This document shows, one piece after another, positions 9,401-36,474 of a stretch of DNA of 41,072 nucleotides. Position 1 is the first letter of the stretch; every line of letters begins with the position of its first letter. The DNA is from Kagunavirus LF7074P1. Both the position numbers and the translations under genes were made by a program. The stretch lies in the sequence record OZ035752.1; one strand, written 5' to 3'. The notes under the pieces were generated by a model, which was not told where the DNA came from, did no database searches, and saw nothing but the letters and a program-made list of their open reading frames with translations.

Positions 9401-10569
9401 ATATGGCTACAACTCCTTTTAAGGGCGCGAATACTGCGCAATTCTATGTGGCAGAAACTACCCCTGGCGTAACACCGACTAACCCGGTCTGGTCGCCATT
9501 GCGTAACACAGGTGGCGTTCCTGCCATTACCCGCGACACGCTGACCTCCAACGAACTGGACGGCAGCCGTGAAACTACGTCAATCCGCACCGGTAACAAG
9601 CAGGTTAGCGGAGAATACGCTATTGAGCTTAGCTCGAAAAGCCAGGACGACTGGCTGGCGGGTGCTTTAGGCTCTACATGGCAATCCGGTAGTTCTCTGA
9701 CCGGGCTATCAATTACCGTCGCGCCTGCAGGCAAGACCTTTACCCGTGCCGAAGGTAGCTTTATTTCTGACGGCGTTGAAGTGGGCGACCTGATTGCGTT
9801 TACCGACTTAACCGGTGACAACGCAAAACCGTTTATCGTAACTGCAGTAGAGGCGCTGGTAGTGACCGGGGCGGGTATCCAGCATACCCTGACCACAGAG
9901 ACAGTAACTACCGCCGCTAAGACAGGGGATAAACTGGAAACGGGAAGCCAGTGCAAGACGTTCTCTATTCTCACCTGGTACAAAGGCCAGTGCGGCGGGA
10001 CTGACGCGTACACACTAACCAAAGGCGTGGAAGTTTCTGGTTTTACCATCGAACAGGCTGTTAACGCTATGGTAACTGGCAGCTTCCCGTTCATCGGTCG
10101 CAGTCAGGAGATTCTCACCACGCAGCCGTCTGGTTCTGATTTCTCCTCTGTTACGTTTGGTGACGAGCCATTCTCCTCGGTCGATGTTTCTGTGTTCGAC
10201 GGTTCTACGCCGTTGCGTTGCGACAGCCTGACCATCACCAACGACAACAGCGCGTCCGCACAGTTCGAACTCGGCAACACTAACGTAGCGTTTGTGGAGC
10301 GTAGCCGAGCAGCTAACACCTTCTCCATCTCCGGTAAGCTGTACGACATGGCGATGATTCAGAAGTTTATCAACGAGCAGCAGGTGGAGATTAACTCTAT
10401 TCTGGCTGGGGTAAACGGGGCTATGTCTTTCAGTTTGAAACGTGCAGAACTTACGGCGGTTACACCTGAGATTGGAGGACCTGAGTCAATCACTCAGTCT
10501 ATTGAAGGCCAGGCTACTGGCAACCAGTACCAGTCGTCTATTGTTATTCAGCGTATCACATACGCATAA
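9397..10569 (+). CDS. major tail protein (putative)
   Basis: 390 aa; RBS AAGAGG; last plus-strand gene before chaperone/tape-measure block; followed by strong terminator. Confidence 0.5.
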   Translation: MNMATTPFKGANTAQFYVAETTPGVTPTNPVWSPLRNTGGVPAITRDTLTSNELDGSRETTSIRTGNKQVSGEYAIELSSKSQDDWLAGALGSTWQSGSSLTGLSITVAPAGKTFTRAEGSFISDGVEVGDLIAFTDLTGDNAKPFIVTAVEALVVTGAGIQHTLTTETVTTAAKTGDKLETGSQCKTFSILTWYKGQCGGTDAYTLTKGVEVSGFTIEQAVNAMVTGSFPFIGRSQEILTTQPSGSDFSSVTFGDEPFSSVDVSVFDGSTPLRCDSLTITNDNSASAQFELGNTNVAFVERSRAANTFSISGKLYDMAMIQKFINEQQVEINSILAGVNGAMSFSLKRAELTAVTPEIGGPESITQSIEGQATGNQYQSSIVIQRITYA

Positions 10570-10573
10570 AACT

Positions 10574-10600
10574 AAGGCCCCGTTTGGGGCCTTTTTTTTT
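10574..10600. terminator. bidirectional intrinsic terminator
   Basis: AAGGCCCC-GTTT-GGGGCCTT stem-loop followed by T9; between convergent genes; exact reverse-complement copy at 23108-23127. Confidence 0.8.
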
Positions 10601-11153
10601 ACAAACCTAATCTTAAAGCAATGCCTATAGCGTTCGATTTAACGTAACCCGGTATGATGTAGGTGTCATAATCTTTTACACCATCAATATCGTACAGGTA
10701 ACCGCGGCTGTCCCCTTCAAACGTATGGCCGTCTCTGTGCAAGCGGACGATTCTCACATCATGCCCCGCGGCAACGATAGGGGCTACTTCGCTGGCGAAC
10801 CCGCCATCAGACACCACAAAAACTTCGTCGCCGTCGGGCAAGTTTCCGGCAAGATACTTACCGAAATAATCATCACCGAATACCGGTTTAATGAATTGCT
10901 CGGAAATGGCAATCATGAACTGACGCCGAGACAACCCGTTAAGGAAACCCTCTGGCTTTTCTTTCCGAGCCCGGTCGTCGTAGCCGTCGAGAAACTCGCG
11001 GTAAGCATCCTGGCCTAACGCAGCCATAGCAATATTGAACATCGGATTCTTGAAACTGGCGACACCCTTCGCAAAGCCCATTTCTACCAGCGCCCTAGCA
11101 AGTGTGTCTTTCCCGCAGCCCGCAGGACCATTAAGAATAATTACCTTAGCCAT
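10599..11153 (-). CDS. P-loop kinase (dNMP kinase-like)
   Basis: 184 aa; Walker A GPAGCGKDT at residues 8-16, resembling T4 dNMP kinase GxxxSGKDT; start overlaps upstream stop (TAATG). Confidence 0.65.
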   Translation of the reverse strand: MAKVIILNGPAGCGKDTLARALVEMGFAKGVASFKNPMFNIAMAALGQDAYREFLDGYDDRARKEKPEGFLNGLSRRQFMIAISEQFIKPVFGDDYFGKYLAGNLPDGDEVFVVSDGGFASEVAPIVAAGHDVRIVRLHRDGHTFEGDSRGYLYDIDGVKDYDTYIIPGYVKSNAIGIALRLGL

Positions 11154-11638
11154 TATTTATCACTCCCATGTGGTTTTAAGTGTGTAGAGTTCCCGTTACA
11201 GTCGTATTCAGTAACTGCGTGAGTGGTTATGCCGAGTTCGCGGAAATGCTTTATTACCGCTGGAGAGTCGTCGAATGCACACAAGATTCTCTCCGGCCCA
11301 ATAGCACGCAACACCTCTTCTTTAATTACGATGTCTTTTCTGTTGTCGTGTTTGCTGCGCATGATTAACTGATAAAATTCGACGCGGTGGCGCTGCAACC
11401 ACATTCTGGTTTCTTTTTCCGCGTCATCACTACGGCCTGTTAAGATAATAACGGCATAGCGACGATTAAGGGCGTTACACAGTTCGATGTTATCTTTAAT
11501 GGGTGCATCGTCTTTGCACGCCATGTTAAATGGTTTCCACGCCCAGGTTTCGCCGTAGTTATCTTTCGGCAGCAGGTGTAAACGATGAGCACCATCTGCC
11601 AATGTCCCGTCTAAATCGAAAATCACAATATCTTTCAT
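11153..11638 (-). CDS. HAD-superfamily phosphatase
   Basis: 161 aa; N-terminal motif I FDLDGTLAD (DxDxT); ATGA overlap with upstream gene. Confidence 0.65.
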   Translation of the reverse strand: MKDIVIFDLDGTLADGAHRLHLLPKDNYGETWAWKPFNMACKDDAPIKDNIELCNALNRRYAVIILTGRSDDAEKETRMWLQRHRVEFYQLIMRSKHDNRKDIVIKEEVLRAIGPERILCAFDDSPAVIKHFRELGITTHAVTEYDCNGNSTHLKPHGSDK

Positions 11639-12771
11639 CCAAGCATCTCCGGTGAAATAGTTAAACGTGCGACCTCGCCATATTCGGCGCTATAAGTAAT
11701 TACGTTTGCACTGCGGCCCGACATCCACCCACCGCGGGAGGCATATGCATCTTTAGCCGCGAGAGTGCGGTGTTGCTCAACAATCATGTTACGGCTTTCT
11801 ACAATCTTTTGGTGGTGCAGGTGACCCACGTGGGCGTAGCTGTAAACACTCTCTCCGAACGCTTTGCGGAACTTGGCGATCATAACCGGTTCGATAGCGT
11901 CGAATCGTGCTTTATGCCCATGATGGAAGAACAGCGTCGTTTTGCCGTGTTGCACCATCTTGTAAACATCCGGCGACGTATCGACGAACACACGCGGCTC
12001 ATTGTCGTACAGCGTACTAAACATCTCAGCTAACCAAATCATTCCGCTTTCGTCGTGGTTACCTTGCACGATAAGCAAGCGAACATTTTTATGTTTAACG
12101 AGAGCCATATCAATGACACGGCGGACCATACGAATCATGTAGCGTACAAGTTTCTGATAGCGGGTGTCAGCGTCAAGAACATGGCCACTTGCGGGTGTAA
12201 CGGCATCCAGACTATCGAAGTGCGCGAAGTCACCTAGCAGGTTAATAACTCCTGTTCCCGCATCTGGCGCTTTCTGAAACGCTGCGTCGAACCATCGAGA
12301 GAACAGGTCTTCTGCGATTTTCATATCCCAGTCGTCGCCGCTCTCGTCGGCCCATGCCAGCATACCGAGATGAAAATCAGATACAGTGTAAAGATTGAGT
12401 AGCTTGTCGTCACGTTTGGTGCGCACGGCTTTAACCGGCGCAACGGGGGTAATCTCTGACTTCATGCCCTCAATTACGGCTTTCATAGCCTCTAACTGTT
12501 TCTCTTTATCCGGCTCGGAAATCACCCACGTCATCACCTCTTCGCCATTAGCCTTTACGCAAGCGGATATTCTTTTAGCAGAGAACCCTTCCGCTATGCG
12601 TTTGGATATTACTGGGTCGTTCCCGTGACCTATGCCCTTCTTGGCTAATCGTGCTTTACGGATACGAATTACGCGGTCTGAGATGCCGTATTTACGGGCG
12701 ATGTCTATATTCCTCATCCCGGCGCTCAATTCTTCCTGTAACTGTTCGTCGGTTATTTTCTTCTGGGCCAT
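11635..12771 (-). CDS. HTH-fused calcineurin-like metallophosphoesterase (SbcD/Mre11-like motifs)
   Basis: 378 aa from ATG 12771 (RBS GAGGAAG); N-terminal HTH (NIDIARKYGISDRVIRIRKARL); motifs SDFHLG, LLGDFAHFD, QGNHDE, HHGH, GHLHH; ORF-track start 12876 would overlap the imm-like gene. Confidence 0.65.
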   Translation of the reverse strand: MAQKKITDEQLQEELSAGMRNIDIARKYGISDRVIRIRKARLAKKGIGHGNDPVISKRIAEGFSAKRISACVKANGEEVMTWVISEPDKEKQLEAMKAVIEGMKSEITPVAPVKAVRTKRDDKLLNLYTVSDFHLGMLAWADESGDDWDMKIAEDLFSRWFDAAFQKAPDAGTGVINLLGDFAHFDSLDAVTPASGHVLDADTRYQKLVRYMIRMVRRVIDMALVKHKNVRLLIVQGNHDESGMIWLAEMFSTLYDNEPRVFVDTSPDVYKMVQHGKTTLFFHHGHKARFDAIEPVMIAKFRKAFGESVYSYAHVGHLHHQKIVESRNMIVEQHRTLAAKDAYASRGGWMSGRSANVITYSAEYGEVARLTISPEMLG

Positions 12772-12809
12772 GCTTACTTCCTCGTGTTTAGGATTTGTCC
12801 TATAGTAGC

Positions 12810-13016
12810 CTACTTCTCTTTCACGTTCGAGTTGCAAGCCCAGATTAAAATAAAGACCCACGGCAGCAGAACCCAACCAAGAAACAGATTAGCCATGAAT
12901 ATCGCTAACTTCGCTTTATGGTTACGGAAGTACGCAACCAGGAAAGGCGCGAAATAAGCGAGCAGTGCAAACAGAATTAAGGAAACTGGTAAACTGGACA
13001 TTTTAAACCCCTTCAT
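12810..13016 (-). CDS. superinfection-immunity-like small membrane protein
   Basis: 68 aa; two hydrophobic helices; YFAPFLVAYFRNHKAKLAIFMANLFLGWVLLPWVFILIWA resembles Imm_superinfect-type proteins (memory only); first gene after promoter. Confidence 0.55.
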   Translation of the reverse strand: MKGFKMSSLPVSLILFALLAYFAPFLVAYFRNHKAKLAIFMANLFLGWVLLPWVFILIWACNSNVKEK

Positions 13017-13031
13017 TGTTGGTGTAAGTGA

Positions 13032-13060
13032 ATAGTACCCTATTATATTGGGGTGTGCAA
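13032..13060 (-). promoter_or_regulatory. sigma70-like promoter with palindromic operator
   Basis: minus-strand TTGCAC-17 bp-TACTAT; operator AATAG-N4-CTATT at 13031-13044; near-identical to plus-strand promoter at 35040-35068. Confidence 0.55.
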
Positions 13061-13168
13061 GTAATGTGATAGAATAAGTTTGCGCCTAGTGTCGCACACG
13101 AAAAGCGGGTGGTTCCCGTCTGGCGCATTTATCGTTAACCTGTAACCTCTTAACCAAAGGATTAAAGA

Positions 13169-13585
13169 ATGAAACTTTCTGATTTTTATTTCGAAGAGAA
13201 AGCACTGGTAGGCAAGAAGATGCCCATTCTGCTGCCAAACGGCGAAGACTCCGGTGAATGGCTTAACGTTGTAAGTCCCGATGCGGATGTCGCCGTTAAA
13301 GCGGGGCGTGCTTTCATTATTGCGTACCGTCGCGGGTTGGCGCGTTTCGAAGAACTGGAAAAAGCCGCCAAAGAATCCGGCGACTATACTGAATATAACC
13401 TGGCTATTAACGAACTGGCGGAAGACCTCAACCGGCAACTCGCGGCAGAAGTCGTAAACGGCTGGAGCTTTGATGAGCCTTTCTCTAAAGAAGCATTTAA
13501 CAAATTGCTGGACCAGTTCAAGGCATTAGGCACACAGGTAGCAGCGTTCCATAACGCTGAGCGCAAAGCATTACAGGAAAAGTAG
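13169..13585 (+). CDS. tail assembly chaperone (G-like)
   Basis: 138-aa acidic protein upstream of tape measure; RBS AAGGA; slippery run near its 3' end. Confidence 0.6.
   Translation: MKLSDFYFEEKALVGKKMPILLPNGEDSGEWLNVVSPDADVAVKAGRAFIIAYRRGLARFEELEKAAKESGDYTEYNLAINELAEDLNRQLAAEVVNGWSFDEPFSKEAFNKLLDQFKALGTQVAAFHNAERKALQEK
13575..13582 (+). other. putative -1 programmed frameshift site
   Basis: AGGAAAAG run (zero-frame GAA AAG) one codon before the G-like stop. Confidence 0.4.
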
Positions 13586-13950
13586 ACGCGCTGTACAGGT
13601 TCGCCACCTATGAGTTTGTGGATAAGCATAAAATCAGAGAGTTTGATTCTATAGCCGACGGACACGAACAGGCGCTTATCGCGATGGGTGTAATCGATAA
13701 GAAAAAACGTGCAGCGCGACGGGGTGGGCCAGAATGCCCGCCCCTTTTTATATCCACCTTCGAGACGTACTGCGACATTAAGTTTACGCGACACGTGCGC
13801 GAGGACGCTGTAGTATTGTTCGCAAGAGAATCCGTTACGTGGCAAGACCTGAAAGCCTATCTCGATGTTACGCAAAAACAGCTTAGCCTGTTCGAGATAG
13901 ACATTATCATGGGCTTAGAAGCAATCTTTGAAGGTAGAAATCATGGCTGA
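13576..13950 (+). CDS. tail assembly chaperone GT extension (via -1 frameshift)
   Basis: -1 frame open from the end of the G-like gene to 13950, ending inside the tape-measure start; typical G/GT layout; ORF track lists this frame from GTG 13618. Confidence 0.45.
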   Translation, partial: GKVDALYRFATYEFVDKHKIREFDSIADGHEQALIAMGVIDKKKRAARRGGPECPPLFISTFETYCDIKFTRHVREDAVVLFARESVTWQDLKAYLDVTQKQLSLFEIDIIMGLEAIFEGRNHG

Positions 13951-20136: not shown

Positions 20137-20148
20137 AGAGGACTCTAT

Positions 20149-23103
20149 ATGTCAAGCGGATGCGGTGACGTTTTAAGCCTGGCGGATTTACAAACCGCCA
20201 AGAAACATCAGATTTTCGAGGCCGAGGTTATCACTGGCAAATCCGGCGGTGTCGCCGGTGGTGCCGATATTGATTACGCGACAAATCAGGTTACTGGACA
20301 GACACAGAAGACGTTACCTGCCGTGTTGCGTGATGCTGGTTTTAAACTGGCAGATTTTGATTTCACGTCAGGCGGTACACTATCCGCTAACGACCGAAAC
20401 ACCGCAGTTTTGTGGCCGTCGTCCTCTGGCGGTGACGGGGATTGGTACTATTGGTTGGGTGCTCTACCAAAAATTATCCCAGCGTCATCTTCTCCGCAGT
20501 CCACCGGTGGCGTGGCAGATGGGGCGTGGCAGCCTGTCGGGTCGGTCATACTGCGGCAGCAAATATCAGATGTAAACGGTGCAATTCTGTACCCAGATTT
20601 ACATGTGGCGCGATGGAAGGACGAATACGACCCGCGCGCATGGGGCGCCGTGGGCGACGGCGTAACTGATGATACTCAATCTATTTTTAATGTATTAGCA
20701 GCTTCCCCCAACAATTGGATTATAGACGGCAGGGGTTTGACTTATAAAGTTTCCCAATTACCTGACATTAGTAAATTTAATAATGCTGCATTCGTTTACG
20801 AGCGCGTAGCCGGGCAACCGCTTACTTATGTAGCTGATGGCTTCTTTAACGGCTCACTAACTAAGGTGACGGATACCCCGTTCTACAACGCATGGACGCA
20901 GGATAAAACTTTCGTCTACGACCATGTTATTTACGCCCCGTTTATGGCGGGCGAACGACATGGTGTTAAAAACTTACATGTAGCTTGGGTTCGCTCTGGA
21001 GACGACGGGCAGACTTGGTCAATGCCTGAGTGGTTGACTCCAATCCATGCTGACTATAATGCTAGTGTTTCTACGGACAGAGTTAACTACCACTGCATGA
21101 GCATGGGTACGTGCGGCAACCGATTATATGCAGTTATAGAAACTCGCTACTTATCTAATATGCGGATGAAGAAGGCAGAACTTTGGTCACGCCCAATGCC
21201 GTATTTTAGACACCCAACCGGCGGAATAACTATTAGTTCTGGCTCCACTACTGCTACCATTGTCATAGAAAATCATGGCCTAAAAGCAGGAGATGCGGTT
21301 AACTTCTCTAATACATCGGCAACTGGCGTATCGGGTAATATGACGGTTTCGTCTATAATTAACCGAAATACGTTCACTGTTACGCTCTCAAGCCCGGCGA
21401 GTTCCACCATAAACAATGCGGGTGTTACCTGGAACTTCGCAACGCGATTCTGGGACAGCCCGTGGGAAATTACCGAATTGCCTGAGGTAGCATACTCCAC
21501 TAATGCTGATTTGTGTGTCACGGAGACACATAGTTTTGCGGTTATAGATGATGTTAACTACACTATCGCTGTCGGCTATCACAACGGCGATGTGTCCCCT
21601 AGGCGTCTCGGTGTCTTGTATTTTAGTAACGTGTATGACAATCCTGGCGTATTCGTTCGTCGCACTGTCGCTCAGGCATACGCTGATAACGCTTCTGAGC
21701 CGTGCGTGAAAAGTTATGGTGGTGTGTTATACCTTACCACACGCGGCACATTACCTACTTCCCCTGGCTCTACACTGGCGATGAGCGCCGATTCTGGGCA
21801 AAACTGGAGCTACTTGCGATTTCCGAACAATGTACATCACTCCAATCTTCCGTTCGCTAAAGTAGGTGACTATCTCTACATCTTTGGTACAGAACGTGCC
21901 TTTGGTGAGTGGGAAGGTGGCGAGCAGGACAGCCGCTATGAAGGTTCGTATCCGAGGACCTTTATGTGCAAAGTTAATGTGTCGTCCTGGCCTTCATCTT
22001 TAGATGATGTTCAGTGGTTTAATATTACCGACCAAATATACCAGGGTCATATCGTTAACTCTGCTGTCGGCGTCGGCTCGGTCTGTGTTAAAGATGGCTG
22101 GTTGTACTATATCTTTGGTGGGGAAGACTTCTTCTCTCCCTGGAGCATAGGGGATAACAGTGCGAAGTTATGGTACAAACATGATGGGCATCCGGCTGAC
22201 TTATATAGCTACCGGATAAAGATTGAAGACCACCCGTACGTATCACGTGATTTCAAATACGGAGCAACTCCTAACCGTACAATACCTGTCGCCATGGGGG
22301 TAGATGGTGTACGCCATGTAGAAGCACCTTTAACGTTTGACAATGATGTAAGCGTGTACTCCCTGCATGTAACGGGGCTGGAATACGATGGTACACAACA
22401 GTCTGCCGTGCGCGCACGGTTTGATGGTGATTACGGGCTGATTTCAAAAACAGTCCCCACTAAAACCCCATCGGGTCAAAGACTGATAGTTAGCGGTGGT
22501 GATGGTGCATCCAGTTCCGATGGTGCGTTGCTGCAACTGTACGGGGCAAACCATGCAACGCCTAACAGGGCTATTATGTATGCGTCAGGAGGCTTCTACT
22601 CATACAACAATTTTCTTCCTTACTTAGACTCGCAAGTGTCTTTAGGTTCGGCAGGTAATAGGTGGACTACGGTGTACGCGGCCACCGGTACGATAAACAC
22701 GTCTGATGGTACACTTAAGACGGACAAAGAGGAAATTGAGGGACAACTCCTTACCGCATGGGAGGATATACATGTAATATCTTTTAAGTGGCTTGAAAGC
22801 CTAGCAATCAAGGGTGACACTGCAAGGATACACTTCGGTGTGATAGCCCAAGATGTGCGAGACATCTTGGTCAACCATGGGCTTATGGAGAAAGATTCTA
22901 CCGATTGTAAATATGCTTTCTTGTGCTACGACTCAATTGAAGCTGCGTATGATATTGATGAAGATGGCCAGACTGTACAAGTATCCCCTCCCGGCGGCAG
23001 ATGGGGGGTTAGGGCGGACCAGATGTTCTTCATAGAGATTGCCTATCAGCGTAAGAAGATGCGCGAGTTCGAGAAGAGGCTGGCAGCACTAGAAGATAAA
23101 TAA
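20149..23103 (+). CDS. tailspike with sialidase-like Asp-boxes and C-terminal intramolecular chaperone-like domain
   Basis: 984 aa; RBS AGAGGA; Asp-boxes SGDDGQTW (20995-21018) and SADSGQNW (21784-21807); GAVGDGVTDD motif; C-terminal TSDGTLK segment (about 22699-22719) as in autoproteolytic S74-type chaperone domains. Confidence 0.75.
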   Translation: MSSGCGDVLSLADLQTAKKHQIFEAEVITGKSGGVAGGADIDYATNQVTGQTQKTLPAVLRDAGFKLADFDFTSGGTLSANDRNTAVLWPSSSGGDGDWYYWLGALPKIIPASSSPQSTGGVADGAWQPVGSVILRQQISDVNGAILYPDLHVARWKDEYDPRAWGAVGDGVTDDTQSIFNVLAASPNNWIIDGRGLTYKVSQLPDISKFNNAAFVYERVAGQPLTYVADGFFNGSLTKVTDTPFYNAWTQDKTFVYDHVIYAPFMAGERHGVKNLHVAWVRSGDDGQTWSMPEWLTPIHADYNASVSTDRVNYHCMSMGTCGNRLYAVIETRYLSNMRMKKAELWSRPMPYFRHPTGGITISSGSTTATIVIENHGLKAGDAVNFSNTSATGVSGNMTVSSIINRNTFTVTLSSPASSTINNAGVTWNFATRFWDSPWEITELPEVAYSTNADLCVTETHSFAVIDDVNYTIAVGYHNGDVSPRRLGVLYFSNVYDNPGVFVRRTVAQAYADNASEPCVKSYGGVLYLTTRGTLPTSPGSTLAMSADSGQNWSYLRFPNNVHHSNLPFAKVGDYLYIFGTERAFGEWEGGEQDSRYEGSYPRTFMCKVNVSSWPSSLDDVQWFNITDQIYQGHIVNSAVGVGSVCVKDGWLYYIFGGEDFFSPWSIGDNSAKLWYKHDGHPADLYSYRIKIEDHPYVSRDFKYGATPNRTIPVAMGVDGVRHVEAPLTFDNDVSVYSLHVTGLEYDGTQQSAVRARFDGDYGLISKTVPTKTPSGQRLIVSGGDGASSSDGALLQLYGANHATPNRAIMYASGGFYSYNNFLPYLDSQVSLGSAGNRWTTVYAATGTINTSDGTLKTDKEEIEGQLLTAWEDIHVISFKWLESLAIKGDTARIHFGVIAQDVRDILVNHGLMEKDSTDCKYAFLCYDSIEAAYDIDEDGQTVQVSPPGGRWGVRADQMFFIEIAYQRKKMREFEKRLAALEDK

Positions 23104-23107
23104 AACT

Positions 23108-23130
23108 AAGGCCCCAAACGGGGCCTTTTC
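23108..23130. terminator. bidirectional intrinsic terminator
   Basis: AAGGCCCC-AAAC-GGGGCCTT followed by TTTTC; between convergent tailspike and replication genes. Confidence 0.75.
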
Positions 23131-23131
23131 T

Positions 23132-23269
23132 CTACTCTTCTGATAGCTTCTCCAGTACAAACGCCAGTTGTGCATTAGCGGCATCCCTCTGTTGTCGTAG
23201 TCGTAGAACCTCCTCTTCAAGTTCCTTGATACGTTTTTGCAATGCCGGAATCGAGGCTATGATGTTCAT
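23132..23269 (-). CDS. hypothetical small coiled-coil protein (45 aa)
   Basis: not in ORF track; ATGA start/stop overlap with upstream TOPRIM gene; ends at terminator. Confidence 0.35.
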   Translation of the reverse strand: MNIIASIPALQKRIKELEEEVLRLRQQRDAANAQLAFVLEKLSEE

Positions 23270-23781
23270 TTAACAAATTTCCTCGCAAGGTAGGTTATCT
23301 CTTCTTCACAAAGCTCATCAAGGTCGTTTGACACAAATCCTCTGGAGAATGTTCTGCTAAATTTTAAACCAGCTTTATCATTATCTCCGGCGCACACCCA
23401 ATCATACGGCAAAAGTGACATTTGCTGCCGTAGGTCTGCAGGTATACCCGACCCCAGTGCGCTTACTGCATGGAATCCGCAATTCATCAAGGCGACAGCT
23501 TTGAATATGCTTTCTGTAACAAATACTACACCGTCGCTTGGTAAATATTCCAACCCCCATAAGCAAGGTCTTGTTGTTCGGGTAAAATACCGCGCATCCT
23601 TTGGGTTCTTGCAGTTCTTTTCAGCATGTGGCTTGTAATGCTGGTACCCGCGTAGCCTACCGTCAAAACCCCACAAGTAGAATGTGGCAACGCCATGGGC
23701 TAAGACTACACGGAGACGGTCGGCGTCAAACCCACGCGCCAGCAGATGCGCCTTAAGTAGTAACTCCTCGCAATCCATCAT
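23266..23781 (-). CDS. TOPRIM-domain protein
   Basis: 171 aa; TESIFKA (Glu) and GDNDKAG (DxD) motifs; ATGA overlap with helicase gene. Confidence 0.55.
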   Translation of the reverse strand: MMDCEELLLKAHLLARGFDADRLRVVLAHGVATFYLWGFDGRLRGYQHYKPHAEKNCKNPKDARYFTRTTRPCLWGLEYLPSDGVVFVTESIFKAVALMNCGFHAVSALGSGIPADLRQQMSLLPYDWVCAGDNDKAGLKFSRTFSRGFVSNDLDELCEEEITYLARKFVK

Positions 23782-25429: not shown

Positions 25430-25717
25430 TTAACTATAATAGCCCGCTATTAGGTCGTCAACCTGTTTAAACGAACCAACGACAAAAACATTTGCACCAC
25501 GTTTACGCATCCGCTCGTGCTCTCGTAACTGGTGCGGGTCCGGCTTCGTGTTTTCGTCTTTCTTAACCTCGACGAACCAGATGATGCCACCAGGGAGAAT
25601 TACCAGCAGGTCGGGGGCGCCCGCTCTATTTTCGTACGACAATTTGCGTACGAGGCCTCCCAGGGCCTCGAATCGCTCTTTTGCGTATTTCTGCACGCGC
25701 CCCTCAGGCGTACTCAT
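25430..25717 (-). CDS. VRR-NUC domain nuclease (putative)
   Basis: 95 aa; PD-(D/E)xK-type residues in APDLLVI..FVEVKK. Confidence 0.6.
   Translation of the reverse strand: MSTPEGRVQKYAKERFEALGGLVRKLSYENRAGAPDLLVILPGGIIWFVEVKKDENTKPDPHQLREHERMRKRGANVFVVGSFKQVDDLIAGYYS
25433..25461 (-). promoter_or_regulatory. sigma70-like promoter with palindromic operator
   Basis: minus-strand TTGACG-17 bp-TATAGT; operator AATAG-N4-CTATT at 25438-25451; overlaps 3' end of VRR-NUC gene. Confidence 0.5.
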
Positions 25718-28855: not shown

Positions 28856-28920
28856 AGTTCAGCCCTCATTAAGTTTAGATTTTCAGTTTACTCCGGGAAG
28901 CTGCCCGGCCAGTGATTAGA

Positions 28921-28949
28921 ACTATAATAGCTAACTATTCAGGTGTCAA
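28921..28949 (-). promoter_or_regulatory. sigma70-like promoter with palindromic operator
   Basis: minus-strand TTGACA-17 bp-TATAGT; operator AATAG-N4-CTATT at 28926-28939. Confidence 0.55.
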
Positions 28950-28953
28950 CACT

Positions 28954-30225
28954 TTATTCTAAATCGTCTTCACTTACCTGATTCCACTCAGGCCGTTTAT
29001 CATCTGCCGTTGCGACACATGGTGTGCCGTGGTTACGAGTTACGTGTTTCTCCAGCGCAGCCCATAGCTCTGAGCCCTTATGCTGCTTCTCAGCCTCGGT
29101 CGGGGACATTAGGACTTCTTTATGGAGCATTTCGACACCAAGCTCAAATCGAGACAGGGTGTCCATAAGCGCCTGCTTATCTTTCCACGCGCGATTTCCT
29201 GGGCGGCCCTCAACCAGCTTGTACCCCGGCACTTTCTTACCGGAATGCAATGCGGCGGTCATCGCTTTCTCAACCTTGTCGATGTGCTGGCGTAACAGCG
29301 GCAACTTCTCATACTCAACTACGAGTTGCTCCGTCGTCAGTTCCAGCGCAAAGTCGTCTTCCAGTTCTTCCGCCAGTACAGAATTAACCGTCTTTGTACG
29401 TGCGGCACACTGTTCAGAGAACCGGCACCACTGGCAACCATCGACCGACGGTTTAAAGTCCGACGCTTTCAGGTTCTTCTTTCCACGGAAATAAGCATCA
29501 AGCGCTAACAGTGCCCGTTTCTGTGCGAACTTAGCGAACAGTTCCAGACCTTCGACAGAGATGTCCCACTCTGACGCACCCCCTGCGTACGGCTGGAAGA
29601 TGACCAGGCGCACTACTGTGATGTTATAACGTCTCTTGAGTCGGCGATAAACACCGAGAGCGTAAAGCATAAGCTGTTTGTTTTCTTTCGCTTCGACACG
29701 ATGTCGTCCTGTTTTCAGGTCGCCAATAATGAGCATGTGCTCGTCGGTGTTCGCCAGTTCCTGAACGGCAACAATGTCGGCGGTTCCGAATGTCTCAACG
29801 CCTTCGTAGCCTGGATGCAATACCTCAGTAAGATTGACACGCATCTCGAGTTTGGCGTAAGTCGCCACGTCTATAATCGCCTTGCAGTAGTCGGTATACT
29901 TGCGCACCTGCTCAATCATGTCAGCCGTGATTAGTACAGCGCCTTTCATCGGACTAATTAGCGCCTTAATCTGGCCTTTACCCTCGTCCAGCACGTAAGC
30001 ACCGACTTCACGCTCTAACGGCAGCGCAGTGCCTTTGATGTACTGGTTAAGGTGCATCTCAGCTATGGTGTGGCACGCAGTACCTGTAACGGCGGCTTTA
30101 CCAGACGTGTTGGGAATATCTTTTTCACAGGCCAGTGACGCGGCGCAGCTTAGCCACTTTTTAGCGCCTGATGGTGACAGTAAGGCGTGCACATCATTAT
30201 TGCCGCCACGTTCTTTTAGAATCAT
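28954..30225 (-). CDS. PD-(D/E)xK exonuclease with C-terminal Cys cluster (DUF2800/Cas4-like)
   Basis: 423 aa; IGDLKTG; C-terminal CQWCRFSEQC. Confidence 0.65.
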   Translation of the reverse strand: MILKERGGNNDVHALLSPSGAKKWLSCAASLACEKDIPNTSGKAAVTGTACHTIAEMHLNQYIKGTALPLEREVGAYVLDEGKGQIKALISPMKGAVLITADMIEQVRKYTDYCKAIIDVATYAKLEMRVNLTEVLHPGYEGVETFGTADIVAVQELANTDEHMLIIGDLKTGRHRVEAKENKQLMLYALGVYRRLKRRYNITVVRLVIFQPYAGGASEWDISVEGLELFAKFAQKRALLALDAYFRGKKNLKASDFKPSVDGCQWCRFSEQCAARTKTVNSVLAEELEDDFALELTTEQLVVEYEKLPLLRQHIDKVEKAMTAALHSGKKVPGYKLVEGRPGNRAWKDKQALMDTLSRFELGVEMLHKEVLMSPTEAEKQHKGSELWAALEKHVTRNHGTPCVATADDKRPEWNQVSEDDLE

Positions 30226-31391: not shown

Positions 31392-31422
31392 TATTTATTC
31401 TCCTCTCGTTTGGTATGGGCTA

Positions 31423-31451
31423 ACTATAATAGCGAACTATTCACTTGTCAA
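31423..31451 (-). promoter_or_regulatory. sigma70-like promoter with palindromic operator
   Basis: minus-strand TTGACA-17 bp-TATAGT; operator AATAG-N4-CTATT at 31428-31441. Confidence 0.55.
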
Positions 31452-31470
31452 TGGGCTTTTCTAAAATAAT

Positions 31471-31484
31471 TAATATGGTACTAT
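31471..31484 (+). promoter_or_regulatory. extended -10 promoter-like element
   Basis: TGgTACTAT with operator-like AATAT-N4-CTATT; about 30 nt upstream of HTH gene. Confidence 0.35.
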
Positions 31485-31515
31485 TCACATATCAACTGAC
31501 TAAGGAGTAATTGAC

Positions 31516-33956: not shown

Positions 33957-34081
33957 TTCTTTTTCTCCGCGCGTTCTAAGGCTTCCTGCATACGACGCAT
34001 TGCGCGGTTCATCTTTACCGGTGCGAAGAAATCAGCGCCGTGTTTCTGGCGGCGCAACTGTGGAACTATTAACTTCGTCAT
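33953..34081 (-). CDS. hypothetical small basic protein (42 aa)
   Basis: not in ORF track; RBS AAGGA; stop overlaps primase start (ATGA). Confidence 0.35.
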   Translation of the reverse strand: MTKLIVPQLRRQKHGADFFAPVKMNRAMRRMQEALERAEKKK

Positions 34082-34150
34082 TGTATAATCCTTGTGCTTA
34101 CTTTGATGATTTGTGCTTCGGCCCCGACGTTCTAGCGTTGGGGTTTCTTT

Positions 34151-34441
34151 TTACCGTTTAGCCAACTCTTCCAGCAAATTTTTATACTCTTCAAAATATT
34201 CCTCGACCAAATCATCGCCGAAATAGAAGTCGATATACTCGAGATTATCTCTTACGTTAAGCGACGCAGACATGGTGCTTAGTTGGCGTAAGCTAATTAG
34301 CTTCATTTCTGTTTCTACACAGAAAGGCCGGTAGGTATCGAGGTGGCAAGAGATGTTGAAGCATAAAGCGAACTCTCCCGCCACGGAGTGAACCATATAC
34401 ACTTCGTTTTCTGCTTTATTGTGGAAAATTACACCTTTCAT
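34151..34441 (-). CDS. hypothetical protein (96 aa)
   Basis: ORF with ATGA overlap to upstream HTH gene. Confidence 0.5.
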   Translation of the reverse strand: MKGVIFHNKAENEVYMVHSVAGEFALCFNISCHLDTYRPFCVETEMKLISLRQLSTMSASLNVRDNLEYIDFYFGDDLVEEYFEEYKNLLEELAKR

Positions 34442-34620
34442 TTCACATTCTCCTTAATCCATTCTTCAACTTTATTACGGTCAAATGTACCTGGTAAACG
34501 GCGACCCATAACCTTAATACAACAATCAGGGAATTTACCACTGCGCAACCAGTTATTAATTGTCTGACGTGTTACCCCAATACGCTCGGCTACTTCATTC
34601 TGGGTCATGTAATGTTGCAT
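34438..34620 (-). CDS. small HTH DNA-binding protein (Cro/excisionase-like)
   Basis: 60 aa from ATG 34620 (RBS AGGAG 8 nt upstream); HTH VAERIGVTRQTINNWL; ORF-track start 34734 lacks RBS and would overlap promoters. Confidence 0.55.
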   Translation of the reverse strand: MQHYMTQNEVAERIGVTRQTINNWLRSGKFPDCCIKVMGRRLPGTFDRNKVEEWIKENVK

Positions 34621-34651
34621 TTTTATATCTCCTGTTTGTTTGGTGAAGCTG

Positions 34652-34680
34652 AGTATAGGATAGCGGGAATGTAAAAGCAA
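34652..34680 (-). promoter_or_regulatory. sigma70-like promoter (leftward early operon)
   Basis: minus-strand TTGCTT-17 bp-TATACT, about 30 nt upstream of HTH gene. Confidence 0.45.
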
Positions 34681-34717
34681 CCAATCCCTGCAATATTTAA
34701 TCTTTACAAAAAAGTTA

Positions 34718-34747
34718 TTGAAAGTTCTTGACACATGTTTGTATAAT
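34718..34747 (+). promoter_or_regulatory. sigma70-like promoter (rightward)
   Basis: TTGAAA-18 bp-TATAAT; divergent from 34652-34680. Confidence 0.55.
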
Positions 34748-34774
34748 GGTTTTGGGACTTGTATATATTACGGA

Positions 34775-34806
34775 GTTGACGAACCCTCCCTGAGGGATTC
34801 GTCAAC
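34775..34806 (+). other. long hairpin / inverted repeat in leader
   Basis: GTTGACGAA-CCCTC-cct-GAGGG-a-TTCGTCAAC, 14 bp stem with one bulge, about 20 nt after predicted start site. Confidence 0.6.
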
Positions 34807-34946
34807 CCCTCCCAGACAGCTGAGATGCTTGTTTTAGGGTTTAAGGATAAGTGTATCTAAATCTCATTTAAAGAAGTAACCCACTGAAATATCTACTGTT
34901 TCTTAATGTGCCGTAGATTCGCAACCGTAAAAATGTAACGATTATT

Positions 34947-34972
34947 GGGCAGGCTTAAGGCCTGCCCTTTAG
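34947..34972 (+). terminator. terminator-like hairpin
   Basis: GGGCAGGC-TTAAG-GCCTGCCC followed by TTTAGTT. Confidence 0.5.
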
Positions 34973-35039
34973 TTACCAAGTAATAAGAATAAAGGCACAA
35001 CCTTCCCCGAAGAATCACAACGGCAACGTAACTAATCTC

Positions 35040-35068
35040 TTGCACACCCCAACATAATAGGATACTAT
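35040..35068 (+). promoter_or_regulatory. sigma70-like promoter with palindromic operator
   Basis: TTGCAC-17 bp-TACTAT; operator AATAG-N4-CTATT at 35056-35069; leader AAACGAGACAGAGGAG. Confidence 0.55.
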
Positions 35069-35102
35069 TCACTTATCGAAACGAGACAGAGGAGTGAGGG
35101 TT

Positions 35103-35285
35103 ATGTTTAAGAATGGTCAGTTGGTGAAAACAAAGCGCAGCCGGCAACACGTAATAGTTACCAAAGACGAGGATGAATATGGTGTTGTCGCCGTATTTAG
35201 CCTTATACGGAGGAAACATGGTTATGTTCGTCACGATAATTTAGAACTCATCGGCAACAATTTTAAATTCAAAGGGGCGAAGTGA
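35103..35285 (+). CDS. hypothetical early protein (60 aa)
   Basis: ATG 35103 with RBS GGAG 8 nt upstream (track start 35094 is GTG). Confidence 0.5.
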   Translation: MFKNGQLVKTKRSRQHVIVTKDEDEYGVVAVFSLIRRKHGYVRHDNLELIGNNFKFKGAK

Positions 35286-35476
35286 TGGGAGAATTAATTT
35301 ACGACGTATACGTCGACGGGGTCATAACAGAGACGACAAGTAATAAAGATTACGCAATAAAGCGGTATGTGTATTATGCCGCAGTGGTAGGAAGGATGGT
35401 AGAAGTGCGGGAGCAAACGGCATCGAATCATGATGCTCGTGCCGACGACTCTGAGGGAGGTTGCCGTGTTAAGTAA
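35285..35476 (+). CDS. hypothetical early protein (63 aa)
   Basis: ATG overlapping upstream stop (TGATG); RBS GGGG. Confidence 0.5.
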   Translation: MGELIYDVYVDGVITETTSNKDYAIKRYVYYAAVVGRMVEVREQTASNHDARADDSEGGCRVK

Positions 35477-35609
35477 ATACCGCATAGTTAGCGAGGAGTG
35501 GGTTACGTTGACGCGTTGTGAAAGCGTAAAGCAGGCTCGCTACTACATCGAGCATGGTTGCACCCGACGCGAGAAATCTAAAGTTATCGGAGTTATTAGC
35601 TATGAATAG
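35466..35609 (+). CDS. hypothetical small protein (47 aa)
   Basis: not in ORF track; GTG start with RBS GGGAGG. Confidence 0.35.
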   Translation: MLSKYRIVSEEWVTLTRCESVKQARYYIEHGCTRREKSKVIGVISYE

Positions 35610-35766
35610 CCGCACGTTTATTTTGAGAGAAGCATTTGAACGGTGGGCTGTGGTCGAGGGTCTGCCGGTTAACAAGGGTTCGAAGAAAGAGTACCTGAAC
35701 GTTAAGACGCGTCTCGCGTGGCGGGCGTGGAAAGCTGGTGTGTTGTCTGTTGCGAATCCGAGGTGA
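35602..35766 (+). CDS. hypothetical protein (54 aa)
   Basis: ATG 35602 overlapping upstream stop; track frame starts at 35554. Confidence 0.4.
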   Translation: MNSRTFILREAFERWAVVEGLPVNKGSKKEYLNVKTRLAWRAWKAGVLSVANPR

Positions 35767-35769
35767 GAT

Positions 35770-35970
35770 ATGAGCGAGTGGATTAAGTGTAGTGAGATGC
35801 TGCCAGGTAATGGGTATACGGATAAAGAGTTCCTGGTGTATGAAACGTTAAATAACGCAGTTCAGCACGATTATTACATAGTTCCTGATGACGGGAGAAA
35901 GCCTTTCTGGAATCACTACGATAAGTACGTGACGCACTGGATGCCGTTACCCGAGCCGCCAGAAGTGTGA
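35770..35970 (+). CDS. hypothetical protein with C-terminal THWMPLPEPP motif (DUF551-like)
   Basis: 66 aa; RBS GGTGAG; C-terminal W-x-P-L-P-x-P-P recalled from DUF551 phage proteins. Confidence 0.5.
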   Translation: MSEWIKCSEMLPGNGYTDKEFLVYETLNNAVQHDYYIVPDDGRKPFWNHYDKYVTHWMPLPEPPEV

Positions 35971-36104
35971 TGTTCAATAGTTTGGGATCTTACTGAGTGA
36001 CTTACGCTGCTACACAGCAGCGTACAACTTTAACTTAGTGTCGTCAAAAGGCGACACTTTCATCAAACGCAACAATCGAAGCGACTATTGCAGGAGATGC
36101 AACA

Positions 36105-36278
36105 ATGATTACTAAAGAACAGGCTGAACGACTAATCACGTTAATCGACACGATGATTGACGTAAAAACCGATTTAGCAACGGCAACAGAGGAATCCGCT
36201 ACCTGGTCGCTTGAAGAAAGAGAAGCAGAAGCGGAAAGGGAGTTACTGGCGTTCATCGACTCTATAACACACCAATAA
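36105..36278 (+). CDS. hypothetical small protein (57 aa)
   Basis: not in ORF track; RBS GGAG 10 nt upstream; preferred over antisense ORF 36044-36256. Confidence 0.4.
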   Translation: MITKEQAERLITLIDTMIDVKTDLATATEESATWSLEEREAEAERELLAFIDSITHQ

Positions 36279-36285
36279 AATTTAC

Positions 36286-36314
36286 TTGCACACTAAGATA
36301 GAATAGGCTACTAT
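36286..36314 (+). promoter_or_regulatory. sigma70-like promoter with palindromic operator
   Basis: TTGCAC-17 bp-TACTAT; operator GAATAG-N4-CTATTC at 36301-36316; leader AAACGAGAGGGGAG. Confidence 0.55.
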
Positions 36315-36345
36315 TCATTTACACAAACGAGAGGGGAGACAGAAT

Positions 36346-36474
36346 ATGAAAGATTATAGCGAAGTAACTTTAGGCGAGTTGCAGGACGAGTACGAAGATA
36401 TGCTCTACCCGTTCATCTGCGACGGGGACTACAACGGCGTCTATAACGGGGTGAGCGAAGAATATGAACACTAA
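36346..36474 (+). CDS. hypothetical small protein (42 aa)
   Basis: not in ORF track; RBS GGGGAG; overlaps next start. Confidence 0.4.
   Translation: MKDYSEVTLGELQDEYEDMLYPFICDGDYNGVYNGVSEEYEH

What the first reader, a model, noticed from the sequence alone, without database searches (positions are those of the whole stretch)
20149..23103. Tailspike combines sialidase-type Asp-boxes with a C-terminal self-cleaving chaperone-like domain
Two canonical Asp-boxes (SGDDGQTW, SADSGQNW) point to a sialidase/endosialidase-like beta-propeller. The C-terminal about 150 residues (around TSDGTLK) look like the intramolecular chaperone domain released by autoproteolysis in endosialidases and some tail fibres. 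This predicts a sialic-acid-containing capsule or glycan as receptor (polysialic acid K1-type capsule is the textbook case) and makes the protein a candidate depolymerase.
Basis: partly seen in the sequence, partly recalled or inferred. Interest (0 to 1): 0.5.

Follow-up and report, generated by a model that had tools for sequence, protein, structure and literature searches.

The report
Known K1-capsule endosialidase tailspike (63D type)

Summary
The protein is a textbook endosialidase tailspike. It matches all four endosialidase-specific Pfam domains plus Peptidase_S74. It aligns to the phi92 endosialidase structure 4HIZ (E=0), the K1F endosialidase (E 1e-230) and the K1F chaperone domain 3GW6 (E 5e-59). 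All K1F catalytic residues checked are conserved (H350, R549, E581, R596, R647 = H271, R485, E517, R532, R583). So is the autoproteolytic Ser/Lys dyad (S852, K857). The experimentally annotated cleavage sites of phi92 and K1F align exactly with T851|S852.

The window is a whole Kagunavirus genome, about 99.6% identical over the first 25 kb compared to LF7074P1. The tailspike protein is 100% identical to that phage's. The gene is 97-99% identical in DNA to the K1H and K1G genes and 96% to the original phage 63D gene. Recombinant K1H and JSSK01 enzymes have been shown to degrade K1 capsule, and K1H enzyme runs at 93 kDa after proteolysis, against 92.8 kDa computed here for residues 1-851.

Verdict: interpretation supported, feature already known, low interest. 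The only open nuance is whether this subtype shares phi92's weak alpha-2,9 activity.

The parts
20137..20142 (+). Shine-Dalgarno sequence AGAGGA, 6 nt before the ATG. The upstream tail-protein gene stops at 20136.
   Evidence: Sequence read; ORF list.
20149..23103 (+). Tailspike/endosialidase precursor gene: 984 aa, computed 108.1 kDa.
   Evidence: The protein is 100% identical to that of Kagunavirus LF7074P1. The gene DNA is 98.7% identical to K1G 'tailspike 63D sialidase'.
20149..20568 (+). N-terminal virion-attachment (anchor) module, aa 1-~140. Residues 1-65 are 100% identical to a Kagunavirus tailspike that carries a different central module. A Tail_spike_N (PF18668) match covers aa 97-131.
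   Evidence: About 72% identity over aa 1-138 to Salmonella Jerseyvirus tailspikes.
20647..20847 (+). Endosialidase N-terminal extension, aa 167-233 (PF12218).
   Evidence: E 2e-37. The alignment to 4HIZ and 1V0E starts at aa 166/167.
20848..22227 (+). Catalytic six-bladed beta-propeller, aa 234-693 (PF12217). Conserved active-site residues are H271, R485, E517 (nt 21697-21699), R532 (21742-21744) and R583 (21895-21897).
   Evidence: E 2e-223. The K1F residue list is taken from PMC12632334.
20995..21018 (+). Asp-box 1, SGDDGQTW (aa 283-290).
   Evidence: Identical in phi92 and K1F.
21199..21447 (+). Beta-barrel domain nested inside the propeller, aa 351-433 (PF12195). In K1F this is a polysialic-acid-binding lectin-like domain.
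   Evidence: E 6e-41.
21784..21807 (+). Asp-box 2, SADSGQNW (aa 546-553).
   Evidence: Homologous boxes are SADLGENW in phi92 and SRDIGQTW in K1F. K1G has STDSGQNW.
22228..22701 (+). Stalk / tailspike domain (beta-prism plus triple beta-helix), aa 694-851 (PF12219). It ends at T851, the predicted last residue of the mature protein.
   Evidence: E 7e-75. The 4HIZ chain ends at the residue aligned to T851. The mature-peptide annotations of phi92 and K1F end at the aligned residue.
22702..23100 (+). C-terminal intramolecular chaperone / Peptidase S74 domain, aa 852-984 (15.2 kDa). The catalytic dyad is S852 (nt 22702-22704) and K857 (nt 22717-22719).
23108..23127 (.). GC-rich hairpin AAGGCCCC-AAAC-GGGGCCTT with T-rich tracts on both strands. 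It is a likely bidirectional terminator between the convergent tail (+) and replication (-) modules.
   Evidence: -15.5 kcal/mol (z -4.1) on the + strand and -17.6 kcal/mol (z -4.0) on the - strand. A near-identical copy lies at 10566-10595.

Best explanation
The gene encodes the receptor-destroying tailspike of a K1-capsule-dependent Kagunavirus, a siphophage of the 63D/K1G/K1H group. It is made as a 108-kDa precursor.

- The C-terminal 133-residue S74 chaperone domain drives trimerisation and folding of the triple-beta-helix stalk.
- Its Ser852/Lys857 dyad then cuts the chain between T851 and S852. This releases the 15-kDa chaperone and leaves a 93-kDa mature spike.
- The first ~65-140 residues dock the trimer to the tail tip.
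- The GH58-type six-bladed beta-propeller (E517, R532, R583, H271, R485), helped by the nested beta-barrel and the stalk as extra polysialic-acid binding sites, cleaves alpha-2,8-linked polysialic acid of the E. coli K1 capsule internally. The phage can then tunnel through the capsule to the outer membrane.

Shown here: the domain architecture, conservation of every catalytic and dyad residue checked, exact alignment with experimentally annotated cleavage sites, and near-identity to characterised enzymes. Inferred from homologues: trimer state, cleavage, substrate and role in infection.
For: - Pfam: End_beta_propel 741 bits, End_tail_spike 251 bits, End_beta_barrel 139 bits, End_N_terminal 127 bits, Peptidase_S74 48 bits.
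- PDB: 4HIZ at E=0 over aa 166-851; K1F endosialidase structures at E 1e-230; K1F chaperone 3GW6 at E 5e-59, with the S911A position aligned to S852 and K916 aligned to K857.
- All catalytic residues and both Asp-boxes are conserved against K1F and phi92. The residue roles come from PMC12632334 and the dyad role from PMC3742443.
- The mature-peptide annotations of phi92 gp143 (ends at residue 756) and K1F gp17 (ends at residue 910) align exactly with T851.
- Computed masses are 108.1 and 92.8 kDa. These match the 108 kDa listed for the 63D enzyme (PMC5380687) and the 93 kDa 'after proteolysis' found for purified K1H enzyme (PMC5696595).
- The gene is 97-99% identical to K1H, K1G and L AB-2017, which are recorded on O18:K1:H7 hosts.
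- Recombinant K1H enzyme degrades purified K1 capsule. Recombinant JSSK01 enzyme produces halos on its K1 host lawn and recognises K1-type capsule specifically in an agglutination test.
- Genomic context: the gene is last in the tail module, after the tape-measure and distal tail proteins.
Against: Nothing found here contradicts this explanation. Three minor caveats remain.

- No experiment was done on this exact sequence.
- The original 63D report described a homotetramer (cited in PMC5380687). That conflicts with the trimeric architecture of the homologues; 4HIZ holds 3 chains.
- One stalk residue recalled from memory as a K1F polysialic-acid contact (Q853) is Leu here, as in phi92. Processivity may therefore differ from K1F.
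Confidence: 0.97

Rival explanations
1. It is a bifunctional endosialidase like phi92 endoN92. It would cleave alpha-2,9 as well as alpha-2,8 linkages and act non-processively, giving activity on K92-type capsule in addition to K1.
For: The closest solved and characterised relative outside the Kagunavirus group is phi92 gp143: 79% identity over aa 166-851 and 85% in the propeller, against 61% for K1F. The phi92 record annotates activity on both poly-alpha-2,8 and poly-(alpha-2,8-alpha-2,9) sialic acid. The stalk position equivalent to K1F Q853 is Leu in both the window protein and phi92.
Against: Every near-identical phage that names a capsule type is recorded on a K1 host. No data on alpha-2,9 activity of the 63D, K1G or K1H enzymes were found. 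A 21% sequence difference from phi92 could easily change regioselectivity. This reading refines the main explanation and does not replace it.
Confidence: 0.25
2. It is a general exo-sialidase (GH33-type BNR/Asp-box neuraminidase) that trims terminal sialic acids from glycans, not a capsule endo-depolymerase.
For: Two Asp-boxes are present. There is a weak BNR_2 match of 14.2 bits.
Against: The BNR_2 match is far below its 31.4-bit cut-off, while the endosialidase-specific families score 127-741 bits. The best structures are all endosialidases. The endosialidase active-site residues are conserved.
Confidence: 0.01
3. It is a catalytically dead tailspike that only binds polysialic acid, like laboratory-derived binding-only endosialidase mutants.
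For: None specific to this sequence. Such mutants exist in the endosialidase literature (Jakobsson et al. 2007, listed in the references of PMC5380687).
Against: H271, R485, E517, R532 and R583 are all conserved. The protein differs from K1G's at only 8 of 984 residues, none of them a catalytic position.
Confidence: 0.02

Closest known systems
Endosialidase of coliphage 63D / K1G ORF27 'tailspike 63D sialidase' / K1H depolymerase (Kagunavirus, Guernseyvirinae)
   Same: This is the same gene in the same genomic position, with the same 984-aa length and domain order. DNA identity is 96.4% to 63D (AB015437), 98.7% to K1G and 97.3% to K1H. There are 8 amino-acid differences from K1G. The protein is 100% identical to that of Kagunavirus LF7074P1.
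   Different: Only point substitutions, for example A547 in Asp-box 2 where K1G has T. A 126-nt patch of synonymous differences from LF7074P1 lies at the 5' end.
Phage phi92 endosialidase endoN92 (gp143; PDB 4HIZ)
   Same: Same catalytic propeller, nested barrel, stalk and S74 chaperone. The cleavage motif GTINT|SDGTLKT is identical. Identity is 85% in the propeller, 71% in the stalk and 71% in the chaperone.
   Different: The N-terminal anchor is unrelated, because phi92 is a myovirus with a different baseplate adaptor: 26% identity over 42 alignable residues. The phi92 enzyme is annotated as also acting on alpha-2,8/alpha-2,9 polymer. That is untested for this subtype.
Phage K1F endosialidase endoNF (gp17; PDB 1V0E, 3GVL, 3GW6)
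   Same: Same fold and mechanism. Catalytic residues, both Asp-boxes and the Ser/Lys dyad are conserved, and the cleavage site aligns.
   Different: Only 51% identity overall. K1F has a T7-type N-terminal anchor and a longer chaperone domain with two insertions. Stalk residue Q853 is Leu here.
Peptidase S74 / intramolecular chaperone auto-processing domains in other fibres (T5 pb1 4UW8, phi29 neck appendage 3GUD, MYRF ICA domain)
   Same: Homologous C-terminal domain placed directly after a triple-beta-helix, with the Ser-x4-Lys dyad.
   Different: Those proteins carry unrelated receptor-binding or functional modules upstream. Their sequence similarity is confined to aa ~820-984.

Membership tests
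Bacteriophage endosialidase (CAZy GH58-type; Pfam PF12217/PF12218/PF12195/PF12219) | Catalytic beta-propeller domain homologous to the endoNF propeller. | tested here: met
   PF12217 covers aa 234-693 over the full profile length, 741 bits against a cut-off of 24. 4HIZ matches at E=0 and 1V0E at E 3e-230.
Bacteriophage endosialidase (CAZy GH58-type; Pfam PF12217/PF12218/PF12195/PF12219) | Two Asp-boxes at the conserved propeller positions. | tested here: met
   The boxes are at aa 283-290 and 546-553, homologous to K1F 362 and 610 and to phi92 192 and 451.
Bacteriophage endosialidase (CAZy GH58-type; Pfam PF12217/PF12218/PF12195/PF12219) | Active-site residues equivalent to K1F H350, R549, E581, R596 and R647. 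| tested here: met
   H271, R485, E517, R532 and R583 are all identical. The residue list is from PMC12632334.
Bacteriophage endosialidase (CAZy GH58-type; Pfam PF12217/PF12218/PF12195/PF12219) | Beta-barrel domain nested in the propeller, and a stalk (beta-prism plus triple beta-helix) domain. | tested here: met
   PF12195 covers aa 351-433 (139 bits) and PF12219 covers aa 694-851 (251 bits).
Bacteriophage endosialidase (CAZy GH58-type; Pfam PF12217/PF12218/PF12195/PF12219) | Endo-cleavage of alpha-2,8 polysialic acid. | not testable with these tools
   Shown experimentally for 96-97% identical enzymes: K1H (PMC5696595) and JSSK01 (PMC11641727).
Peptidase S74 / C-terminal intramolecular chaperone domain | Homologous domain at the extreme C-terminus, directly after the triple beta-helix. 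| tested here: met
   PF13884 covers aa 852-912, 48 bits against a cut-off of 22. 3GW6 matches at E 5e-59 over aa 758-984.
Peptidase S74 / C-terminal intramolecular chaperone domain | Catalytic Ser-x4-Lys dyad at the domain start. | tested here: met
   S852 and K857 align with K1F S911 and K916 and with phi92 S757 and K762. The dyad role is from PMC3742443.
Peptidase S74 / C-terminal intramolecular chaperone domain | Autoproteolytic release of the domain. | not testable with these tools
   The annotated cleavage sites of phi92 and K1F align to T851|S852. The K1H enzyme runs at 93 kDa after proteolysis, against 92.8 kDa computed here for aa 1-851.
Kagunavirus / Guernseyvirinae tailspike (position and anchor) | Shared N-terminal anchor, and position as the last gene of the tail module. 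| tested here: met
   Residues 1-65 are identical to a non-endosialidase Kagunavirus tailspike. About 72% identity over aa 1-138 to Jerseyvirus tailspikes. Synteny with K1G: tape measure, tail proteins, tailspike, then convergent helicase.

The most novel reading that the evidence does not exclude
The 63D/Kagunavirus endosialidase subtype is much closer to phi92's bifunctional enzyme than to K1F's. It might therefore share phi92's alpha-2,9 side activity and non-processive mode. That would extend the usable substrate range of these therapeutic-candidate enzymes to K92-type and alpha-2,9 polysialic acids.
Probability: 0.25. Interest if true: 0.3.

Novelty: already known. Interest (0 to 1): 0.08.

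Why it matters
Endosialidase tailspikes let phages infect K1-encapsulated E. coli, which cause neonatal meningitis, urinary infection and sepsis. The purified enzymes are used as anti-virulence therapeutics and as polysialic-acid research reagents. This copy adds no new biology. It is another natural variant of the 63D/K1H enzyme, which has already been cloned and assayed on K1 capsule and, for K1H, tested in mice. Its value is correct annotation: the phage can be predicted with high confidence to be K1-capsule dependent.

Tried and rejected
- A GH33-type exosialidase reading was rejected. BNR_2 scored 14 bits against a cut-off of 31, while the endosialidase families scored 127-741 bits.
- An inactive, binding-only spike was rejected because all catalytic residues are conserved.
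- Structure prediction, fold search and the large protein-database searches were deliberately not run.
- The full LF7074P1 record (L002) could not be read from Python. Only the tailspike gene was compared base by base.
- A literature search for '4HIZ' returned mostly irrelevant papers. One of them (PMC6116203) confirmed that 4HIZ is the phi92 endosialidase.
- No tRNA and no Rfam family were found in the window. No internal promoter or terminator signal inside the gene exceeded the shuffled expectation.

Full report
**Observation.** The coordinates 20149-23103 delimit exactly one + strand ORF of 984 codons plus a stop. An AGAGGA ribosome-binding site lies 6 nt upstream, and the preceding tail-protein gene ends at 20136. 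The strict Asp-box pattern occurs twice, SGDDGQTW at aa 283-290 and SADSGQNW at aa 546-553. About 0.07 occurrences are expected by chance. TSDGTLK is at aa 851-857.

**Identity of the protein.** Pfam assigns a complete endosialidase architecture:
- End_N_terminal, aa 167-233
- End_beta_propel, aa 234-693 (741 bits)
- End_beta_barrel nested at aa 351-433
- End_tail_spike, aa 694-851
- Peptidase_S74, aa 852-912
- a Tail_spike_N match at aa 97-131

The generic BNR_2 sialidase model is far below threshold.

Against solved structures, residues 166-851 align end to end with 4HIZ (E=0). The K1F endosialidase structures 1V0E, 3GVL and others match at E about 1e-230. 4HIZ is the phi92 endosialidase (PMC6116203). 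Residues 758-984 match the K1F intramolecular chaperone structure 3GW6 at E 5e-59. More distant S74 domains also match: T5 pb1 and the phi29 neck appendage.

**Catalytic and processing residues.** I aligned the protein with full-length K1F gp17 and phi92 gp143. The K1F residues reported as catalytic or substrate-binding are H350, R549, E581, R596 and R647 (PMC12632334). They are all conserved, as H271, R485, E517, R532 and R583. Both Asp-boxes are positionally conserved in all three proteins.

In 3GW6 the sequence TANGERK, the S911A form, aligns with T851-S852-D-G-T-L-K857. S852 and K857 correspond to K1F S911 and K916 and to phi92 S757 and K762. In bacteriophage endosialidases this Ser/Lys pair is the catalytic dyad for self-cleavage (PMC3742443).

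The GenBank mature-peptide annotations end at residue 756 in phi92 and residue 910 in K1F. Both align exactly with T851. The predicted products are 92.8 kDa (aa 1-851) and 15.2 kDa (aa 852-984), from a 108.1-kDa precursor. These figures match the 108 kDa listed for the 63D enzyme (PMC5380687). They also match the 93 kDa 'after proteolysis' seen for purified K1H depolymerase (PMC5696595).

**Where it comes from.** The first 25 kb of the window are 99.6% identical to Kagunavirus LF7074P1 (41,071 bp) and about 93-96% identical to other K1-dependent Kagunavirus siphophages.

The gene itself has these DNA identities:
- 99.5% to LF7074P1
- 99.3% to phage L AB-2017
- 98.7% to K1G, where it is annotated 'tailspike 63D sialidase'
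- 97.3% to K1H
- 96.4% to the original phage 63D endo-N-acetylneuraminidase gene

The hosts recorded for these phages are mostly E. coli O18:K1:H7. At protein level the window product is identical to the LF7074P1 product and differs from K1G's at 8 residues.

The neighbourhood is the expected one. The tape measure, distal tail proteins and the large tail protein precede the tailspike. A primase-like ORF, an SNF2-type helicase, a VRR-NUC-like nuclease and the DNA polymerase converge from the other strand. The rest of the window carries terminase, portal, capsid, replication and lysis genes, so it is a whole phage genome.

**Modularity.** The protein is a three-part mosaic.
- Residues 1-65 are 100% identical to the tailspike of a Kagunavirus whose central module is not an endosialidase. 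That tailspike also ends in its own S74 domain, 33% identical and with a TSDERAK dyad motif.
- Residues 1-138 are about 72% identical to Salmonella Jerseyvirus tailspikes.
- The catalytic, stalk and chaperone parts are closest to myovirus phi92: 85%, 71% and 71% identity. They are more distant from podovirus K1F: 61%, 39% and 49%.

This is the known pattern of endosialidase cassettes grafted onto lineage-specific anchors (reviewed in PMC5380687).

**Mechanism (committed).**
- The precursor trimerises through the C-terminal chaperone.
- Once the triple beta-helix is folded, the Ser852/Lys857 dyad cleaves T851|S852 and releases the chaperone.
- The mature trimer is held on the tail tip by the N-terminal anchor.
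- The mature trimer binds polysialic acid and cleaves alpha-2,8 linkages internally, clearing the K1 capsule for the phage.

The architecture and residue conservation are shown here. Cleavage, oligomeric state and substrate are inferred from 96-99% identical enzymes. Recombinant K1H enzyme degrades purified K1 capsule and rescues infected mice. Recombinant JSSK01 enzyme gives halos on its K1 host lawn and recognises K1 capsule specifically. From my own knowledge, K1F endosialidase is an inverting glycosidase classed in CAZy GH58, and phi92's enzyme has weak alpha-2,9 activity and is non-processive. The phi92 GenBank note supports the dual substrate.

**Rivals.** An exosialidase reading and a dead-enzyme reading are excluded by the domain scores and the conserved active site. 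The only live variant is that this subtype behaves like phi92, with an alpha-2,9 side activity and non-processive action. The higher similarity to phi92 and the shared Leu at the position of K1F stalk residue Q853 hint at this. The binding role of Q853 is recalled from memory and was not checked.

**Novelty and verdict.** Novelty: already known. Interest: low.

Noticed in passing
window 20173-20298: All 16 nucleotide differences between the window's tailspike gene and that of LF7074P1 fall within gene nt 25-150. All 16 are synonymous, and the remaining 2,805 nt are identical. The window's version of this patch matches K1H, L AB-2017 and UTI89UKE1 at 99.4%. This looks like a short recombination tract inside the anchor segment that all Kagunavirus tailspikes share.
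   Followed up: partly
window 23100-23129 and 10566-10595: The terminator hairpin after the tailspike gene, with its 5' flank (ATAAAACTAAGGCCCC-loop-GGGGCCTTTT), is repeated almost exactly at the other convergent gene junction. There only the 4-nt loop is inverted (AAAC versus GTTT). Both fold at about -15 to -18 kcal/mol and have T-rich tracts on both sides, consistent with bidirectional terminators.
   Followed up: partly
window 23266-23781 (-): A 171-aa ORF just downstream of the tailspike, on the opposite strand, matches only the middle part of a DNA primase family (phrog_849, positions 149-334 of 435). Phage K1G annotates only a 61-aa ORF at this spot. K1G also carries a cytosine methylase between the helicase and the next genes, which appears to be absent from the window.
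   Followed up: no
window 10599-12876 (-): A three-gene minus-strand island interrupts the plus-strand structural module, between the minor tail protein and the tail assembly chaperones. Its genes resemble dNMP kinase, polynucleotide kinase and DNA repair exonuclease.
   Followed up: no
window 13169-13585 and 13618-13950 (+): Two adjacent ORFs in different frames match the N- and C-terminal halves of one tail assembly chaperone family (phrog_15027). This is the usual signature of a programmed frameshift upstream of the tape measure gene.
   Followed up: no
window 25432-25475, 28920-28963, 31422-31465; also 13018-13064, 31471-31491, 35039-35075, 36282-36328: Two related families of 37-47-nt repeats lie in intergenic positions of the replication/early region. 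Read on the minus strand, the first family contains TTGACA-N17-TATAGT. They are probably a set of conserved phage promoters sharing a GAATAGT spacer motif.
   Followed up: no
window 34000-36400: This is the lowest-GC stretch of the window (0.41), with a sign change of GC skew near 35000. It holds only small ORFs (45-100 aa) on both strands. It is probably the divergent early/regulatory region.
   Followed up: no
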